Sequence record: NC_007823.1
Length of the DNA: 6,065 nt
Direction: 5' to 3' (one strand)
DNA from: Escherichia phage NC28
The notes beneath the pieces were generated by a model. It was not told the origin of the DNA, ran no database searches, and saw only the letters and a list, made by a program, of their open reading frames with translations. Below, in pieces: positions 1 to 6,065 of the stretch. Made by a program: the position numbers and the translations under genes. Every line of letters begins with the position of its first letter. Positions within the stretch are counted from its first letter, which is position 1.

Positions 1-26
1 TTGTTGACTTCTCCCAATCCCTTATG

Positions 27-59
27 AGACTCTTACTTCAACGAATGAAGTAGGAGTCT
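27..59 (+). terminator. Hairpin just downstream of gene H (H stop is at the window end, assuming a circular genome): 13-bp stem (27-39 / 47-59, one G-U pair), 7-nt loop, followed by TCTTTAT. Likely the post-H (TH-like) terminator or mRNA-stabilising hairpin.
   Basis: Read directly: 5' arm AGACTCTTACTTC (27-39), loop AACGAAT (40-46), 3' arm GAAGTAGGAGTCT (47-59). The 3' arm contains AGGAG (52-56), the SD of the ORF starting at 65. The U-tract is weak. Confidence 0.5.
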
Positions 60-64
60 TTATC

Positions 65-433
65 ATGAAGCCCGCTCACCGCTTGACTCATCCGATTCTC
101 GGTTCTTGGTTGTTTAAGTGCCCTGTTTATATCAGTTATGAGCACCTTCATCATGGTCGTCTCATTAAGGTTCGCGCTGTTCGTGATTTATCCCCTCGCC
201 AGCAGCTTATCGCTAACCCTAAAAATTGTTTTGACGTTGTTATTGCTGTGATTGACGTTACTTATTGCTCTGTCACTTATTTTGATTATGAGGCTGAGGA
301 ATATGCCGAGTGTGATTCAGAAACTATGGATAATATCCTTGCTTATGTTAACTCTCCTCACTCCCTTCGCTCTGAGGAGGATTCATCCGTTGATGTTGAC
401 GATATGGCGTGGCTTTATGAAATTGCGGAGTAA
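65..433 (+). CDS. Hypothetical acidic protein (122 aa) in the H-A intergenic region; no recognisable family.
   Basis: ATG at 65 with AGGAG (52-56) 8 nt upstream. T-rich third codon positions match the phage's other genes. C-terminal half is strongly acidic (EEDSSVDVDDMAWLYEIAE tail). Stop TAA at 431-433 lies 3 nt before the next ATG. Confidence 0.5.
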   Translation: MKPAHRLTHPILGSWLFKCPVYISYEHLHHGRLIKVRAVRDLSPRQQLIANPKNCFDVVIAVIDVTYCSVTYFDYEAEEYAECDSETMDNILAYVNSPHSLRSEEDSSVDVDDMAWLYEIAE

Positions 434-436
434 ATC

Positions 437-526
437 ATGGAAACTGTTGTCGGGAAATTTATTGCTTTGGCTGTTGTTGCTCTTATGCTGTATGGAATTG
501 CCCGTTTAATTCGGAGGTTCCCGTGA
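437..526 (+). CDS. Hypothetical small hydrophobic peptide (29 aa, METVVGKFIALAVVALMLYGIARLIRRFP): one predicted transmembrane helix with a basic C-terminus.
   Basis: ATG at 437 with GGAG (427-430) 6 nt upstream. Hand translation gives an uninterrupted hydrophobic stretch then RLIRRFP; stop TGA at 524-526. Too short to appear in the supplied ORF track. Confidence 0.38.
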   Translation: METVVGKFIALAVVALMLYGIARLIRRFP

Positions 527-699
527 AATACTTTAGTCTTGTGGATGAACATTATGCTTATTGCCCTGACACGCGGATTCTGCATATCACTCGCAGTCGT
601 GTTTCTGACCCTCGTTATGAGCGTCGTTTTCTTACTGATGAGGAGCATTTTGAGCTTCTGGATTGGTTGAAAAGCCGTCTGACTTACGTTAATTCTTGA
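523..699 (+). CDS. Hypothetical 58-aa protein with GTG start overlapping the ORF2 stop (GTGA), translation VKYFSLVDEHYAYCPDTRILHITRSRVSDPRYERRFLTDEEHFELLDWLKSRLTYVNS.
   Basis: GGAGG (513-517) lies 5 nt upstream of GTG 523. Open frame to TGA 697-699 verified codon by codon. No in-frame ATG, so the start is uncertain. Confidence 0.33.
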   Translation: MKYFSLVDEHYAYCPDTRILHITRSRVSDPRYERRFLTDEEHFELLDWLKSRLTYVNS

Positions 700-725
700 C
701 AATCTTCTGAAATACCCTCTATATT
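696..725 (+). promoter_or_regulatory. Candidate sigma70 promoter for gene A (PA-like): -35 TTGACA (696-701), -10 TATATT (720-725), 18-nt spacer.
   Basis: Perfect -35 hexamer and a 5/6 -10 read directly, positioned about 35 nt upstream of the A start codon, analogous to phiX174 PA in the H-A intergenic region. The ORF3 stop TGA sits inside the -35 hexamer. Confidence 0.45.
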
Positions 726-755
726 GCCCTCATAGGTTCACTACGAGGGCTTTTT
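726..755 (+). terminator. Terminator-like or leader hairpin: GCCCTC (726-731) / GAGGGC (745-750) stem, 13-nt loop, followed by TTTTT (751-755), immediately before the gene A ATG.
   Basis: Read directly. The 3' arm GAGGG (745-749) is also the likely SD of gene A, 9 nt before ATG 759. Could terminate transcripts coming from the upstream cassette and/or modulate A translation. Confidence 0.4.
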
Positions 756-758
756 CGC

Positions 759-2243
759 ATGGCTACCGAATTGTTTTCTGACGTTGTAAAGGCTACGTGG
801 TCGCATGTCACTGCTAAGCATCCTCATCTTCGTATGGCTGTTCAGGTTGATAACCGTAGCCGTCTTCTTTCTGATTTGGTTTACCAGTTGGAAAAACGCC
901 TTTCCGAAGAGACTCATTTGGATGATGAGACTTATGCCCTTTATGAATCTCAGACTGGCCTTTTGGAAGACCATATGGCACTGGTTCGAAAGTGTGCAGC
1001 CCAACTTGATAATAGTAACACTATAGACCACCGTACCCCGTTGGACCCTGAATGTGTTTTCCTTTTTGAAATGATTTGTCCAGGTGTTCGCTATGGTAAG
1101 GCGCTTAATTCGCTTTGGAGTAAGTATGTCGCTCAATGGCCTGAGAAGTTAATTCGTCAGGAGCTCGACATGGTTAAGCCTTTATCTTTCAAGGATGAGG
1201 TTGCCAAGTACATGGAGAAAATGCAGGAAAAAACACGTAAAAATCGCATGACTCAGAAAGTGATTAATGAGATGCGTATTGCTCACCAAAAAGGCTGGTT
1301 CTTCGTATTTGATACGTTGACACTTGCTGATGACCGTTTGCAGGCGTTTAATGAAAACCCCAATGCTCTTCGTGATTACTTCAGGACTGTTGGTCGAGCT
1401 GTTTTGCGCGCTGAAGGTCGTTCGGTTAAGGATTCCTACAACGACTGCTATCGCTATCTTTGTGTGCCGGAGTTTGGAGGCCAGCACGGCCGTCTTCATT
1501 GGCATGTCGTGCATATGGTGCGGACTCTTCCTTTGGGAAGTCACGACCCTAATTTCGGTCGCAAGGTACGTAATTATCGCCAAATTAACTCGTTCCGTGG
1601 TATGTGGCCTTATGGCTTCACGCAACCGATAGCTGTACGCTATCAACATGATGCTTATTCTCGTAAAGGTTGGTTGTGGCCTGTTGACAAAACAGGAAAA
1701 GCAATGCAGAGTAAGCCGTATCAGGCGGTCGCATGGTATGTGACCAAGTATGTAGCTAAGCAATCTGATCAGCGTCAGAAAGCTATTACCGAGAGACAAA
1801 AAAAATGCAAAAATCCTTTGATGGCAATTTGCTTGAAGAAAGAATTCAGGGTTCGCAGCAGCCGGAAGCTCGGAATGGAGTTACCTTCAATGGTTCACCT
1901 GAGCAACAAGGTCCTTCTGGAACTGAGCAGAATCAGCTTCGATTCCAGCCCGCTCTATCAGATAGTGAAAGAGAACGCCAAAAAGCAATTGAGCTTGAAC
2001 ATCGGCGTAGTGCCTTTGCACGTCATTATGGATGTGCGCCCGCAAGTGAGAAGTATGTTGAAAAATATCCGTCGTTTGATGAAAAAGACACCAGAATTCA
2101 ATTGGCAGAATTCTATCGCTTCAATGACGGTCACCTTAAAAAATGGGGATATTTCTAATGAAGCACGTCAATACATTGTTGATGCAGGAATTACGCCTTT
2201 TGATTTGCGAGCTAAAGCGACTCAAACTTTCGGCGGTAAGTGA
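759..2243 (+). CDS. A: Replication initiation protein A (rolling-circle HUH endonuclease), 494 aa.
   Basis: Long ORF with HUH motif GRLHWHVVH (His codons near 1497-1514) and double-tyrosine motif AWYVTKYVAKQSD (Tyr codons at 1737 and 1749). Central and C-terminal regions align with recalled phiX174 protein A (e.g. GWFxVFDTLTLADDRL, PNALRDYFR, DPNFGRxVRN, WPYG, GWLWPVD). Confidence 0.94.
   Translation: MATELFSDVVKATWSHVTAKHPHLRMAVQVDNRSRLLSDLVYQLEKRLSEETHLDDETYALYESQTGLLEDHMALVRKCAAQLDNSNTIDHRTPLDPECVFLFEMICPGVRYGKALNSLWSKYVAQWPEKLIRQELDMVKPLSFKDEVAKYMEKMQEKTRKNRMTQKVINEMRIAHQKGWFFVFDTLTLADDRLQAFNENPNALRDYFRTVGRAVLRAEGRSVKDSYNDCYRYLCVPEFGGQHGRLHWHVVHMVRTLPLGSHDPNFGRKVRNYRQINSFRGMWPYGFTQPIAVRYQHDAYSRKGWLWPVDKTGKAMQSKPYQAVAWYVTKYVAKQSDQRQKAITERQKKCKNPLMAICLKKEFRVRSSRKLGMELPSMVHLSNKVLLELSRISFDSSPLYQIVKENAKKQLSLNIGVVPLHVIMDVRPQVRSMLKNIRRLMKKTPEFNWQNSIASMTVTLKNGDISNEARQYIVDAGITPFDLRAKATQTFGGK
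1002..1031 (+). other. Viral (+) strand replication origin 30-mer inside gene A; predicted nick between G1008 and A1009.
   Basis: CAACTTGATAATAGTAACACTATAGACCAC matches the recalled phiX174 origin CAACTTGATATTAATAACACTATAGACCAC at 28 of 30 positions; both differences fall in the AT-rich spacer. In frame within A (translated ...QLDNSNTIDHR...). Confidence 0.8.
1212..2243 (+). CDS. A*: Protein A*: in-frame internal restart within gene A, about 343 aa.
   Basis: In-frame ATG at 1212 (MEKMQEKTRKNRMTQ...) preceded by AAGGA/GAGG (1191-1200). It sits at the position equivalent to the phiX174 A* start, about 25 residues before the conserved GWFxVFDTLTLADD. In-frame ATGs at 1221 and 1248 are alternatives. 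Confidence 0.45.
   Translation: MEKMQEKTRKNRMTQKVINEMRIAHQKGWFFVFDTLTLADDRLQAFNENPNALRDYFRTVGRAVLRAEGRSVKDSYNDCYRYLCVPEFGGQHGRLHWHVVHMVRTLPLGSHDPNFGRKVRNYRQINSFRGMWPYGFTQPIAVRYQHDAYSRKGWLWPVDKTGKAMQSKPYQAVAWYVTKYVAKQSDQRQKAITERQKKCKNPLMAICLKKEFRVRSSRKLGMELPSMVHLSNKVLLELSRISFDSSPLYQIVKENAKKQLSLNIGVVPLHVIMDVRPQVRSMLKNIRRLMKKTPEFNWQNSIASMTVTLKNGDISNEARQYIVDAGITPFDLRAKATQTFGGK
1805..2158 (+). CDS. B: Internal scaffolding protein B (117 aa), encoded in an alternative frame inside gene A.
   Basis: ORF in a different frame from A. C-terminus ...DTRIQLAEFYRFNDGHLKKWGYF matches recalled phiX174 B C-terminus (...WRIQPAEFYRFHDAEVNTFGYF). Acidic, Q-rich N-terminal region typical of B. Confidence 0.9.
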   Translation: MQKSFDGNLLEERIQGSQQPEARNGVTFNGSPEQQGPSGTEQNQLRFQPALSDSERERQKAIELEHRRSAFARHYGCAPASEKYVEKYPSFDEKDTRIQLAEFYRFNDGHLKKWGYF

Positions 2244-3057: not shown

Positions 3058-3071
3058 GGGCCTTCGGGCCC
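3058..3071 (+). terminator. J-F intergenic GC hairpin GGGCC-TTCG-GGCCC followed by TTT; terminator-like (TJ) or mRNA-stabilising stem-loop.
   Basis: Perfect 5-bp GC stem with TTCG tetraloop read directly, followed by TTTAAGGA, whose AAGGA (3075-3079) is the SD for F at 3086. Confidence 0.55.
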
Positions 3072-4375: not shown

Positions 4376-4389
4376 GGGCCTTCGGGCCC
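4376..4389 (+). terminator. F-G intergenic GC hairpin GGGCC-TTCG-GGCCC, second copy of the J-F hairpin; terminator-like (TF).
   Basis: Identical stem-loop to 3058-3071, with similar flanks (TTATG upstream, C(C)TTTAAGGA downstream); the downstream AAGGA serves as the SD for G. Confidence 0.55.
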
Positions 4390-4952: not shown

Positions 4953-5087
4953 AAGGCCACCGCACTCCTGGTTAGATGCCTGCCCAGTGTAGGGTGGACC
5001 GAGCCGTACGGAGATACCCGAGAAACTAGGAACGCGGAAGGCGTTAGCCGCCTTCCCTCCTGCTAAGCCCAAAGGAGACTTTCAGCT
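4953..5087 (+). promoter_or_regulatory. 135-nt structured G-H intergenic region; candidate terminator after G and/or complementary (-) strand origin (primase-dependent ssi). Strong hairpin at 5036-5056 (GGAAGGCG-TTAGC-CGCCTTCC); possible imperfect hairpin 4957-4997; palindrome CCGTACGG at 5004-5011.
   Basis: Hairpins read directly. The spacer is far longer than a terminator plus RBS needs, while the F-G spacer is only 37 nt. My recollection is that in G4 the (-) strand origin is in F-G and in alpha3/St-1/phiK it is in G-H. AAGGAG (5072-5077) is the SD for H. Confidence 0.35.
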
Positions 5088-6065
5088 ATGTTAGGTGCCG
5101 TTGTAGGTGGTATTGTTTCAGCCTTAGCTGGTGGAGCAGCTTCTAAGCTATTTGGTGGCAAGCCTGCCGCTCAAGCCGCCACTGAGTCCTCTGGCCTTTC
5201 TAATGGTCAAGGTGTTATTGGTATGGACCAAGATGCTGGTATTCAGTCAGCTATTCAGGGTTCGAATGTTCCAAATGGTCAGATTCCTGCCCCTACCCAG
5301 ACTGGTGGCGTTATGTCTGACGCTAAAAATATGATTAAGAATGCTGGTAAAGATTTGCTTGATGGTGTTATGACCGCTGGAAGTGACCGCATTAAGCAGG
5401 CATTGGTTGATAAATTGAGTGGTAATAATGCAAAACGACAAGGACAAGCAACCCGTGATTACTTGGCTTCGGCCTTCCCTGAGCTCAACCCGTGGGAACG
5501 TTCTGGAGCTGGTGCTTCCGGTGCCGGATTGGAATCTTCCGGTCAGGACCAACAAAAAGAGTTGATGCGTATGCAGCTGGATAACCAGAAAGATATTGCA
5601 AAGATGCAGATGGATAACAATTTGCAGATTGCTGGTATTCAGTCCGCTACATCTCGTCAGAATACTAAGGACACTGTTTATGCTCAGAATGAAATGCTTC
5701 AGTACAATCAGCGTGAGTCGCAGGCACGCGTTGAATCTATCCTCGCCAACACTAACCTTACGGATAAGCAGGCTACCCATGAAATCATGAGAATGGCTCT
5801 TACCCGTGCTCAGGAAACTGGTCAGCATTTGACTAACTCTCAGATTATGGCATTGGAGAAAAAGGTTTATGCAGAAATCGGAAAAATTAATCAAGATACT
5901 CAAAACGCTCGCTATGGTAGTTCTCAGGTTACTGCTGCGGCGAAAGATGTTACGAATATGATTACTGATGCCACCTCTGGTGCTGCTGATTGGGTTTCCC
6001 AGCAATGGAATTCCCTCTTTAAGGATGGTAAGTCTAATGGTATTCCCCTCAATACCAGAAAATAA
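5088..6065 (+). CDS. H: Minor spike / DNA pilot protein H (325 aa).
   Basis: AAGGAG (5072-5077) 10 nt before ATG 5088. Glycine-rich N-terminus (MLGAVVGGIVSALAGGAASKLFGG), then GIQSAIQGSNVPN, TRDYLAxAFPELNxWER, QKELxxMQLDNQK, IAGIQSATSRQNTKDxVYAQNEML, ENTNL, QNxRYGSS; C-terminal ...FKDGKSNGI...RK. All match recalled phiX174 H. Stop TAA is the last 3 nt of the window. Confidence 0.95.
   Translation: MLGAVVGGIVSALAGGAASKLFGGKPAAQAATESSGLSNGQGVIGMDQDAGIQSAIQGSNVPNGQIPAPTQTGGVMSDAKNMIKNAGKDLLDGVMTAGSDRIKQALVDKLSGNNAKRQGQATRDYLASAFPELNPWERSGAGASGAGLESSGQDQQKELMRMQLDNQKDIAKMQMDNNLQIAGIQSATSRQNTKDTVYAQNEMLQYNQRESQARVESILANTNLTDKQATHEIMRMALTRAQETGQHLTNSQIMALEKKVYAEIGKINQDTQNARYGSSQVTAAAKDVTNMITDATSGAADWVSQQWNSLFKDGKSNGIPLNTRK

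What the first reader, a model, noticed from the sequence alone, without database searches (positions are those of the whole stretch)
27..59. Post-H hairpin sequesters the ribosome-binding site of the first cassette ORF
The 13-bp stem's 3' arm contains AGGAG (52-56), the only plausible SD for ATG 65. One RNA structure could therefore both terminate or stabilise H-containing transcripts and throttle translation of ORF1 on read-through mRNA. That would keep expression of the downstream cassette low or conditional.
Basis: seen in the sequence. Interest (0 to 1): 0.45.

Follow-up and report, generated by a model that had tools for sequence, protein, structure and literature searches.

The report
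Post-H terminator hairpin masking ORF1's ribosome site
The hairpin just after gene H of this alpha3-like microvirus is real, is kept in every relative examined and buries the ribosome-binding site of a conserved small gene, but it is another example of the terminator/ribosome-site arrangement already seen at the H-A junction of phiX174 and G4.

Summary
The window is a complete circular alpha3-like microvirus genome (Bullavirinae, Alphatrevirus; 91.7% identical to WA13), cut just after the gene H stop.

- **Observation confirmed.** Bases 27-40 pair with 46-59: 14 bp, one G.U, 5-nt loop, -20.8 kcal/mol. AGGAG (52-56) lies in the 3' arm and the ORF1 ATG is at 65.
- **Strength.** It is the most stable 40-nt fold on the + strand. 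The predicted probability that the SD is unpaired is 0.001. ORF1 has the highest ribosome-site opening cost of 14 start sites tested (19.3 kcal/mol; others 3.3-16.4).
- **Conservation.** All 22 distinct alpha3-like post-H sequences keep the base stem GACUCUU/GGAGUCU, while the apex varies. Covariation is weak.
- **ORF1 is a real gene.** It shows a codon-position signature and has 19 homologue clusters, all found on contigs of at most about 6.3 kb.
- **Not a new design.** phiX174 and G4 have the same layout after H: a TTGAC -35 box, then the T_H hairpin whose 3' arm is gene A's SD, then a U-run and ATG. In phiX174 the pA start lies in the hairpin loop. The window also carries this module before gene A (696-758).
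- **Best reading.** A T_H-type terminator or 3'-end stabiliser that also blocks ORF1 translation on read-through mRNA. ORF1 may be translated from transcripts that start inside the hairpin; this is inferred, not shown.

Modest interest; a new member of a known kind.

The parts
5088..6065 (+). Gene H (minor spike / pilot protein). Its stop codon is the last codon of the window, and the genome is circular.
   Evidence: ORF list; matches H of WA13 and the other Alphatrevirus records.
1..9 (+). Conserved block TTGTTGACT containing a -35-like hexamer TTGACT (4-9; TTGACA in most relatives), 3 nt after the H stop.
   Evidence: 7 of 9 positions are invariant in 18 genomes, against 16% invariant third codon positions in ORF1 (P = 8e-5). 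It occupies the same place as the pA -35 of phiX174 and G4.
25..33 (+). TGa + GACTCT: a hypothetical extended -10 element, 18 nt after the -35 box, lying inside the 5' arm.
   Evidence: Read from the sequence only. It has A at hexamer position 2 and T at position 6 but only 2 of 6 matches to TATAAT. The consensus scan did not call it. Inference.
27..40 (+). 5' arm of the hairpin (AGACTCTTACTTCA). Its base GACTCTT (28-34) pairs with the SD.
   Evidence: GACTCTT is invariant in all 22 distinct alpha3-like sequences.
41..45 (+). Loop ACGAA. Its first bases are where a transcript would start by analogy with phiX174 pA.
   Evidence: The phiX174 start site 3962 is the first loop base of T_H.
46..59 (+). 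3' arm of the hairpin (TGAAGTAGGAGTCT).
52..56 (+). Shine-Dalgarno AGGAG of ORF1, fully inside the stem.
   Evidence: The same pentamer is annotated as a ribosome_binding_site in the alpha3 record M25640. P(unpaired) is 0.001.
57..64 (+). U-rich tail TCTTTATC. It is both the terminator U-tract (weak here) and the SD-ATG spacer.
   Evidence: Relatives have TCTTTTTT.
65..433 (+). ORF1, 122 aa; a conserved protein-coding gene of unknown function.
   Evidence: Mean pairwise differences at codon positions 1/2/3 are 0.168/0.110/0.331. There are 19 homologue clusters at 70-96% identity. AlphaFold2 mean pLDDT is 88.9.
437..526 (+). ORF2, 29 aa, with its own SD GGAG at 427-430.
   Evidence: Conserved in all relatives. 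Called as a gene in Lilleven and in metagenomic contigs. Its RBS is annotated in M25640.
523..699 (+). ORF3, 58 aa. Its GTG start overlaps the ORF2 stop (GTGA).
   Evidence: Codon positions 0.102/0.042/0.206; conserved in all relatives.
696..758 (+). Second copy of the design: pA (TTGACA-18-TATATT), then the hairpin 726-750 whose 3' arm holds the SD of gene A (GAGG 745-748), then TTTTT and the ATG of A at 759.
   Evidence: The only 11/12 promoter match in the genome. Hairpin. Second-highest opening cost, 16.4 kcal/mol. Conserved in the relatives, except NC35 which carries a deletion here.

Best explanation
The element is the alpha3-group version of the microvirus post-H terminator hairpin (T_H type). 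On transcripts that arrive from the upstream promoters through gene H, the 14-bp stem folds as soon as its 3' arm is made. (1) Together with the U-rich tail it stops a fraction of polymerases. This fraction is likely large in relatives with U6-7 and smaller in this genome. It also leaves a 3' hairpin that protects H-containing mRNA. (2) On molecules that read through, the same stem holds ORF1's only Shine-Dalgarno sequence in a helix of about -20 kcal/mol, so ORF1 is essentially untranslatable from late read-through mRNA. Shown here: the structure, its conservation, the SD occlusion in thermodynamic models, the coding status of ORF1, and the same layout at phiX174/G4 pA-T_H. Inferred: actual termination, stabilisation and translational repression.
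For: - The stem is in the MFE and centroid structures.
- It is the most stable local fold on the + strand.
- SD P(unpaired) is 0.001 in 14 of the 15 genomes (0.207 in ID62), with hairpin energies of -14 to -21 kcal/mol.
- The opening cost of the ORF1 ribosome site is 19.3 kcal/mol, the highest of 14 start sites. Gene A is next at 16.4; all others are 3.3-11.9.
- The base stem is invariant in 22 distinct alpha3-like sequences, while the apex changes in sequence and length yet still folds.
- Pair 35/51 occurs as G.U, G-C and A-U. One genome (L036) shows a double-sided change.
- The RNA + strand (-20.8) is more stable than the - strand (-16.7) because of the conserved G.U.
- Tails are U6-7 in alpha3, St-1, NC3, ID62 and Lilleven.
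- In phiX174 and G4 the T_H 3' arm GGAGGC is gene A's SD.
- In phiX174 the combined pA-T_H element cuts transcriptional current by about 70% (bioRxiv 10.1101/2020.03.05.979765).
- The hairpins after J and F leave their SD outside the stem. Occlusion is therefore specific to the two junctions that carry a -35 box.
Against: - No experimental data exist for any alpha3-like phage.
- There is no significant covariation: 7 of 14 pairs never vary, shuffles reach the observed score 211 times in 500, and the RNAalifold covariation term is -0.08.
- The U-tract in this window is interrupted (UUUAUCAU), and the simple terminator scan did not call the site.
- One lineage (L031/L032) has almost no U-tract but keeps the stem. 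Termination therefore cannot be the only conserved role.
- A fold this stable occurs somewhere in 5 of 60 shuffled genomes.
- ORF1 is under purifying selection, so it must be translated somehow. This explanation alone does not say how.
Confidence: 0.6

Rival explanations
1. Promoter-terminator overlap (an extension of the best explanation rather than an exclusive rival). The conserved -35 box at 4-9, with TG(25-26)-n-GACTCT(28-33), is a weak extended -10 promoter. Its transcripts start in the hairpin loop (about A40/A41), as phiX174 pA transcripts start in the T_H loop. They lack the 5' arm, so ORF1's SD is open. The element thus stops and silences upstream transcripts while launching a translatable ORF1-3 mRNA.
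For: - TTGTTGAC is invariant well beyond the neutral expectation (P = 8e-5).
- There are no indels between the box and the stem in any genome.
- The first 26 nt look homologous to phiX174 pA: TTGAC, the shared 8-mer CTCCCAAT and TATG sit at nearly the same offsets.
- The phiX174 start site 3962 is the first loop base of T_H.
- Starting the RNA at 40 lowers the ORF1 opening cost from 19.3 to 8.4 kcal/mol. The same calculation for phiX174 gene A gives 13.4 to 4.5.
- In L029/L031 the replaced apex carries GATAAT.
- It explains how a gene under purifying selection can be expressed at all.
Against: - The -10 candidate matches TATAAT at only 2 of 6 positions (3 of 6 for GAGACT with a 16-nt spacer).
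- The consensus scan finds no promoter here and only one strong promoter in the genome, at 696-725.
- phiK lacks the TG.
- The conserved -35 box could be a relic, or serve a DNA-level role.
- There are no start-site data.
Confidence: 0.3
2. A plain intrinsic terminator and mRNA 3'-end stabiliser. The overlap with the SD is a by-product of squeezing a terminator and a start site into 64 nt. ORF1 is translated at a low level by breathing of the stem, or after nuclease processing.
For: The position right after H and U-tracts of 5-7 in most relatives; the phiX174 precedent for T_H; the lack of covariation evidence for any more specific role.
Against: The part of the stem that never varies is exactly the part that pairs with the SD, whereas the apex and the U-tract vary. 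L031/L032 keep the SD-pairing stem with a poor U-tract. The terminator hairpins after J and F in the same genome keep their SD outside the stem. Overlap is therefore not forced by compactness.
Confidence: 0.2
3. A DNA-level element. This could be a hairpin in the single-stranded viral DNA, or part of a 'reduction sequence'-like site. [quoted passage not shown] It would act in complementary-strand synthesis, superinfection inhibition or packaging.
For: The hairpin is also predicted in ssDNA (-11.1 kcal/mol, z -4.7). The phiX174/G4 reduction sequence maps to the homologous region (PMC8310164). The blocks 1-9 and 20-25 outside the stem are conserved.
Against: The universally kept T33.G53 and the common G35.T51 are wobble pairs in RNA but mismatches in DNA. 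The RNA + strand is the most stable form. The 3' arm is explained by the SD. No test of the reduction effect in alpha3-like phages was found in the papers searched.
Confidence: 0.07

Closest known systems
phiX174 pA-T_H composite element (H-A intergenic region)
   Same: It lies immediately after the H stop. A TTGACA -35 box comes within 10 nt of the stop, then a hairpin whose 3' arm contains the SD of the next gene (GGAGG), then a U-run that doubles as the SD-ATG spacer, then ATG. The first 26 nt appear homologous (TTGAC, CTCCCAAT, TATG). T_H is a measured terminator that overlaps the promoter.
   Different: In phiX174 the next gene is A, the stem is 6-8 bp (-12.8 kcal/mol) and it starts after the -10 hexamer. 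Here the next gene is ORF1 of a three-gene insert, the stem is 14 bp (-20.8) and it covers the place where the -10 hexamer would be. No acceptable -10 is recognisable and no start site is known.
G4 pA-T_H (L016 1-61), and this genome's own pA-hairpin-SD(A) module at 696-758
   Same: Both have TTGAC(T/A)-18-(-10), then a GC-rich hairpin with the SD in the 3' arm, then TTTT(T) and ATG. The distance from the -35 box to the ATG is similar: 55-63 nt, against 61 here.
   Different: Both have near-consensus -10 hexamers (TAATAT, TATATT) and shorter stems that begin after the -10. The A-proximal hairpin shows compensatory changes in ID32, which the post-H hairpin largely lacks.
RBS-sequestering hairpins as translational operators (thermodynamic occlusion of the SD; own knowledge of de Smit and van Duin's work on the MS2 coat gene)
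   Same: The SD is inside a stable helix, and the predicted cost of opening the site is far above that of the other genes.
   Different: No ligand, protein, temperature or upstream-translation trigger is identifiable. The H stop is 26 nt upstream of the stem, so a terminating ribosome should not melt it (inference).
phiX174 terminator hairpins as mRNA 3'-end stabilisers (Hayashi and co-workers, as cited in bioRxiv 10.1101/2020.03.05.979765)
   Same: A stem-loop at the end of a late transcription unit in a phage that produces nested read-through mRNAs.
   Different: Stabilisation has not been tested for any alpha3-like phage.

Membership tests
Rho-independent (intrinsic) terminator | A stable stem-loop downstream of a stop codon, on the coding strand | tested here: met
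   14 bp (5 G-C, 8 A-U, 1 G.U), -20.8 kcal/mol, starting 26 nt after the H stop.
Rho-independent (intrinsic) terminator | An uninterrupted U-tract directly 3' of the stem | tested here: inconclusive
   In the window, after C58, the tail is UUUAUCAU (5 U of 8), and the consensus scan does not call it. Alpha3, St-1, NC3, ID62 and Lilleven have UUUUUUAU. L031/L032 have UCUCAUGA.
Rho-independent (intrinsic) terminator | RNA 3' ends and loss of transcription at the site | not testable with these tools
   No transcriptome of an alpha3-like phage was found.
Bullavirinae pA-T_H promoter-terminator overlap | A -35 box just after the H stop | tested here: met
   TTGACT at 4-9; TTGAC is invariant in the 22 alpha3-like sequences; same place as in phiX174 and G4.
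Bullavirinae pA-T_H promoter-terminator overlap | A recognisable -10 hexamer 16-18 nt downstream of the -35 box | tested here: not met
   Candidates are GAGACT (3 of 6) or TGnGACTCT (2 of 6 plus TG). Nothing is reported by the scan.
Bullavirinae pA-T_H promoter-terminator overlap | The hairpin's 3' arm carries the SD of the next gene, followed by a U-run and ATG | tested here: met
   AGGAG at 52-56 is in the 3' arm, with ATG at 65. Compare GGAGGC-TTTTTT-ATG in phiX174.
Bullavirinae pA-T_H promoter-terminator overlap | The transcription start lies inside or after the 5' arm, so promoter transcripts lack the stem | not testable with these tools
   Annotated for phiX174 (start site 3962). For the window it is only a geometric analogy (about position 40).
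Bullavirinae pA-T_H promoter-terminator overlap | The downstream gene is A | tested here: not met
   The downstream gene is ORF1. Gene A has its own complete module at 696-758.
RBS-occluding translational operator | The SD and/or start codon is base-paired in the dominant structure | tested here: met
   P(unpaired) is 0.001. The opening cost of 19.3 kcal/mol is the highest of 14 starts.
RBS-occluding translational operator | A defined mechanism that opens the structure | tested here: inconclusive
   No competing fold appears in a context running from 60 nt upstream to 130 nt downstream of the H stop. Removing the 5' arm lowers the cost to 8.4, but no start or processing site is known.
Any curated RNA family (Rfam 15) | A covariance-model match | tested here: not met
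   No match with E <= 1 anywhere in the window.

The most novel reading that the evidence does not exclude
The post-H element may be a second promoter-terminator-RBS 'insulator', derived from the ancestral pA-T_H module, in which the -10 region has been taken over as the anti-SD arm. Late transcripts would be terminated there, and any read-through copy would be translationally silent for ORF1. The accessory operon ORF1-3 would be expressed only from transcripts that start in the hairpin loop (about A40/A41) and so carry a free SD. One 60-nt element would then uncouple an acquired three-gene cassette from the phage's late transcription.
Probability: 0.25. Interest if true: 0.5.

Novelty: new member of a known kind. 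Interest (0 to 1): 0.3.

Why it matters
If the reading is right, alpha3-like microviruses use the phiX174 H-A junction design twice. That design is a hairpin that ends one transcription unit and hides the next gene's ribosome site. They use it once for gene A and once for a conserved three-gene insert that almost no annotation records. This gives a concrete, testable account of how the unexplained 0.7-kb H-A region of the alpha3 group is expressed. It also flags ORF1 as a real gene worth studying: it is a confidently folded protein with no sequence-family or fold match. The regulatory logic itself is not new, so the general significance is modest.

Tried and rejected
- **Rfam, whole window at E <= 1:** no match.
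- **PHROGs and Pfam for ORF1-3:** nothing credible.
- **Pattern scans** for GAGACTCTT-N(8-38)-AGGAGTCT in viral and metagenome contigs returned mostly chance hits in unrelated contigs. L054 was checked and is unrelated.
- **Covariation test:** not significant. I do not claim covariation support.
- **Full H-A region alignment:** MAFFT misaligned the hairpin once the insert-bearing L029/L031 were included, so its per-arm diversity and invariance figures understate conservation. I relied instead on direct inspection of the 22 sequences.
- **Literature:** the Rokyta 2006 paper (PMC1347346) is not held. Searches found no description of alpha3 promoters, terminators or the H-A ORFs.
- **Rejected readings:** translational coupling of ORF1 to H (the stop is 64 nt from the ATG and 26 nt from the stem); an alternative upstream start at ATG 24 (in frame only in some relatives, and without an SD); and a pure chance hairpin (conserved in all relatives).

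Full report
**What the window is.**
The 6065-nt window is a complete circular genome of an alpha3-like microvirus (Microviridae, Bullavirinae, Alphatrevirus). It aligns end to end with WA13 and WA45 at 91.6-91.7% identity and with alpha3, phiK and St-1 at 83-85%. [quoted passage not shown] The finding therefore lies in the first 64 nt of the long H-A region typical of this clade.

**The observation.**
- Bases 27-40 pair with 46-59: 14 bp made of 5 G-C, 8 A-U and one G.U at T33.G53, with a 5-nt loop.
- AGGAG is at 52-56 and the ORF1 ATG at 65.
- The stem is in the MFE and centroid structures of a 120-nt RNA.
- With 60 nt of H upstream and 130 nt downstream it persists, and the SD has a mean unpaired probability of 0.001.
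- It is the most stable 40-nt fold on the + strand: -20.8 kcal/mol, against a genome mean of -5.8 and sd 3.2.
- A control tempers this: 5 of 60 dinucleotide-shuffled genomes contain an equally stable window somewhere. The case rests on position and conservation, not on energy alone.

**Conservation.**
I collected the post-H region from 13 database phages and from metagenomic contigs reached through ORF1 homologues. That route does not select for the hairpin.
- All 22 distinct alpha3-like sequences have the hairpin.
- The base of the stem, GACUCUU pairing with GGAGUC(U), never varies.
- The apex varies. There are single mismatches in several phages. One genome (L036) has altered apical pairs and a bulge. 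One lineage (L029-L032) has the apex replaced by a roughly 30-nt insert that still folds.
- Formal covariation is weak. Seven of 14 pairs never vary, and one pair occurs as G.U (8), G-C (5) and A-U (2). The shuffle control reaches the observed score 211 times in 500.
- RNAalifold reproduces the stem, but with a covariation term of only -0.08.
- The + strand RNA form is the most stable (-20.8, against -16.7 for the - strand and -11.1 as ssDNA). This is because of the conserved wobble pair, and it points to a role in RNA.

**Is ORF1 real?**
Yes.
- ORF1 (122 aa), ORF2 (29 aa) and ORF3 (58 aa) are intact and syntenic in all relatives except the old alpha3 and St-1 records, which have ORF1 frameshifts. 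The alpha3 frameshift is absent from the re-sequenced DQ085810.2.
- Pairwise differences by codon position are 0.168/0.110/0.331 for ORF1 and 0.102/0.042/0.206 for ORF3.
- ORF1 has 19 homologue clusters at 70-96% identity, all on contigs of at most about 6.3 kb.
- ORF1 has no credible Pfam or PHROG match.
- The AlphaFold2 model is confident (mean pLDDT 88.9, pTM 0.80) and has no PDB fold match.
- The alpha3 GenBank record M25640 already annotates this AGGAG, and the SDs of ORF2 and ORF3, as ribosome-binding sites. Only Lilleven and one dog-faeces genome annotate the ORFs.

**How occluded is the start site?**
I computed the free energy needed to unpair positions -15 to +13 around each of 14 start codons, using a context of 80 nt upstream and 100 nt downstream.

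| Start site | Opening cost (kcal/mol) |
|---|---|
| ORF1 | 19.3 |
| Gene A | 16.4 |
| All 12 others | 3.3-11.9 |

- ORF2 and ORF3 are ordinary, at 8.9 and 8.6. Only ORF1, not the whole cassette, is masked.
- The terminator-like hairpins after J and F (GGGCCTTCGGGCCC) leave their SD (AAGGA) just outside the stem. Overlap of SD and stem is therefore not a necessity of compactness.

**Comparison with known microvirus biology.**
- In phiX174 the sequence after H reads TTGACA, then 17 nt, then TTTCAT, then GCCTCC-aaatctt-GGAGGC, then TTTTTT and the ATG of gene A. G4 is analogous.
- So the T_H 3' arm is gene A's SD.
- The annotated pA start site (3962) is the first loop base, so pA transcripts lack the 5' arm.
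- Logel and Jaschke describe this promoter-terminator overlap. They measure about a 70% loss of transcriptional current across it (bioRxiv 10.1101/2020.03.05.979765).
- My opening-cost calculation for phiX174 gene A gives 13.4 kcal/mol on read-through RNA and 4.5 from the known start site.
- The window has this module in front of gene A at 696-758. It comprises TTGACA-18-TATATT, which is the only 11/12 promoter match in the genome. A hairpin at 726-750 with GAGG in its 3' arm follows, then TTTTT and ATG. Compensatory changes occur in ID32.
- The post-H element is a second instance. TTGACT sits 3 nt after the H stop, the spacer shares CTCCCAAT and TATG with phiX174, and then come the hairpin, SD, U-rich tail and ATG.

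**Mechanism.**
- *Best supported (confidence 0.6).* This is a T_H-type terminator or 3'-end stabiliser for H-containing transcripts that also silences ORF1 on read-through RNA.
- *Termination strength.* It is probably strong in relatives with U6-7 and weaker here, where the tail is UUUAUCAU. In L031/L032 the U-tract is nearly gone but the SD-pairing stem is kept. That suggests SD masking or RNA stability is at least as conserved a role as termination.
- *Open question.* ORF1 is under purifying selection, so something must expose its SD.
- *Most economical answer (probability about 0.25-0.3).* The conserved -35 box still works, with TG(25-26)-n-GACTCT(28-33) as a weak extended -10. It would start transcripts at about A40/A41 in the loop, exactly as in phiX174.
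- *For this idea.* TTGTTGAC has 7 of 9 invariant positions, against 16% at ORF1 third codon positions (P = 8e-5). There are no indels between box and stem. An RNA starting at 40 has an opening cost of 8.4 instead of 19.3.
- *Against it.* The -10 is poor and the consensus scan does not call it.

**Other rivals.**
- A plain terminator with an incidental SD overlap (0.2).
- Chance, which is negligible given the conservation.

**Verdict.**
The element is a new member of a known kind: the Bullavirinae post-H terminator/RBS hairpin. Interest is modest (0.3). The most useful outcomes are the duplicated-module view of the alpha3 H-A region and the case that ORF1-3 are real, unannotated genes.

Noticed in passing
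window 696-758: A complete phiX174-style pA module sits in front of gene A. It comprises TTGACA-18-TATATT, a hairpin GCCCTC...GAGGGC with A's SD in the 3' arm, TTTTT and ATG. Gene A's start has the second-highest opening cost in the genome (16.4 kcal/mol, falling to 10.5 from a predicted start at about 732).
   Followed up: partly
L010 (NC35), about 75 nt upstream of gene A (A starts at 730): NC35 carries a 29-nt deletion that removes the pA -10 hexamer and the 5' arm of the A-proximal hairpin but keeps the SD. It is a natural mutant in which gene A must be transcribed and translated differently.
   Followed up: no
window 65-433 (ORF1): ORF1 encodes a conserved 122-aa protein whose N-terminal 65 residues are nearly invariant. 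The AlphaFold2 model is confident and beta-rich (pLDDT 88.9, pTM 0.80). It has no significant PDB fold match and no Pfam or PHROG family. Its homologues were found only on contigs of at most about 6.3 kb; those examined are alpha3-like. It is unannotated in the 2006 coliphage, alpha3, phiK and St-1 records examined.
   Followed up: partly
L029/L030 1120-1300 and L031/L032 (metagenomic alpha3-like genomes of 6.2-6.3 kb): In this lineage the hairpin apex is replaced by a roughly 30-nt insert that contains GATAAT. ORF1 carries a 32-aa N-terminal extension (154 aa) that starts with the same MKP. The SD-pairing base stem is unchanged.
   Followed up: partly
window 3058-3071 and 4376-4389: Identical GGGCCTTCGGGCCC tetraloop hairpins follow genes J and F. 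Each is followed by TTTAAGGA, so the SD for F and for G lies just outside the stem. These are the likely T_J and T_F equivalents.
   Followed up: partly
window 4953-5087 (G-H intergenic region): This 135-nt non-coding stretch holds the second most stable local fold on the + strand (in the window starting at 5024, -18.3 kcal/mol). From my own knowledge it is probably the primase-dependent complementary-strand origin described for alpha3, St-1 and phiK. This was not tested here.
   Followed up: no
window 1002-1031 (inside gene A): CAACTTGATAATAGTAACACTATAGACCAC closely resembles the 30-nt phiX174 viral-strand origin recognised by protein A. The comparison is from memory of the phiX174 sequence and was not aligned here.
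   Followed up: no
L003 (NC_001330 / X60322 alpha3) and L013 (St-1), positions 1-440: ORF1 is frameshifted in the old alpha3 record and in the St-1 record. It is intact in the re-sequenced alpha3 DQ085810.2 (L266), so the alpha3 frameshift at least looks like a sequencing error.
   Followed up: partly
window 427-437 and 512-526: ORF2 has its SD (GGAG) inside the end of ORF1. The ORF3 GTG start overlaps the ORF2 stop (GTGA), with GGAGG 6 nt upstream. This is a tightly coupled three-gene operon layout.
   Followed up: no
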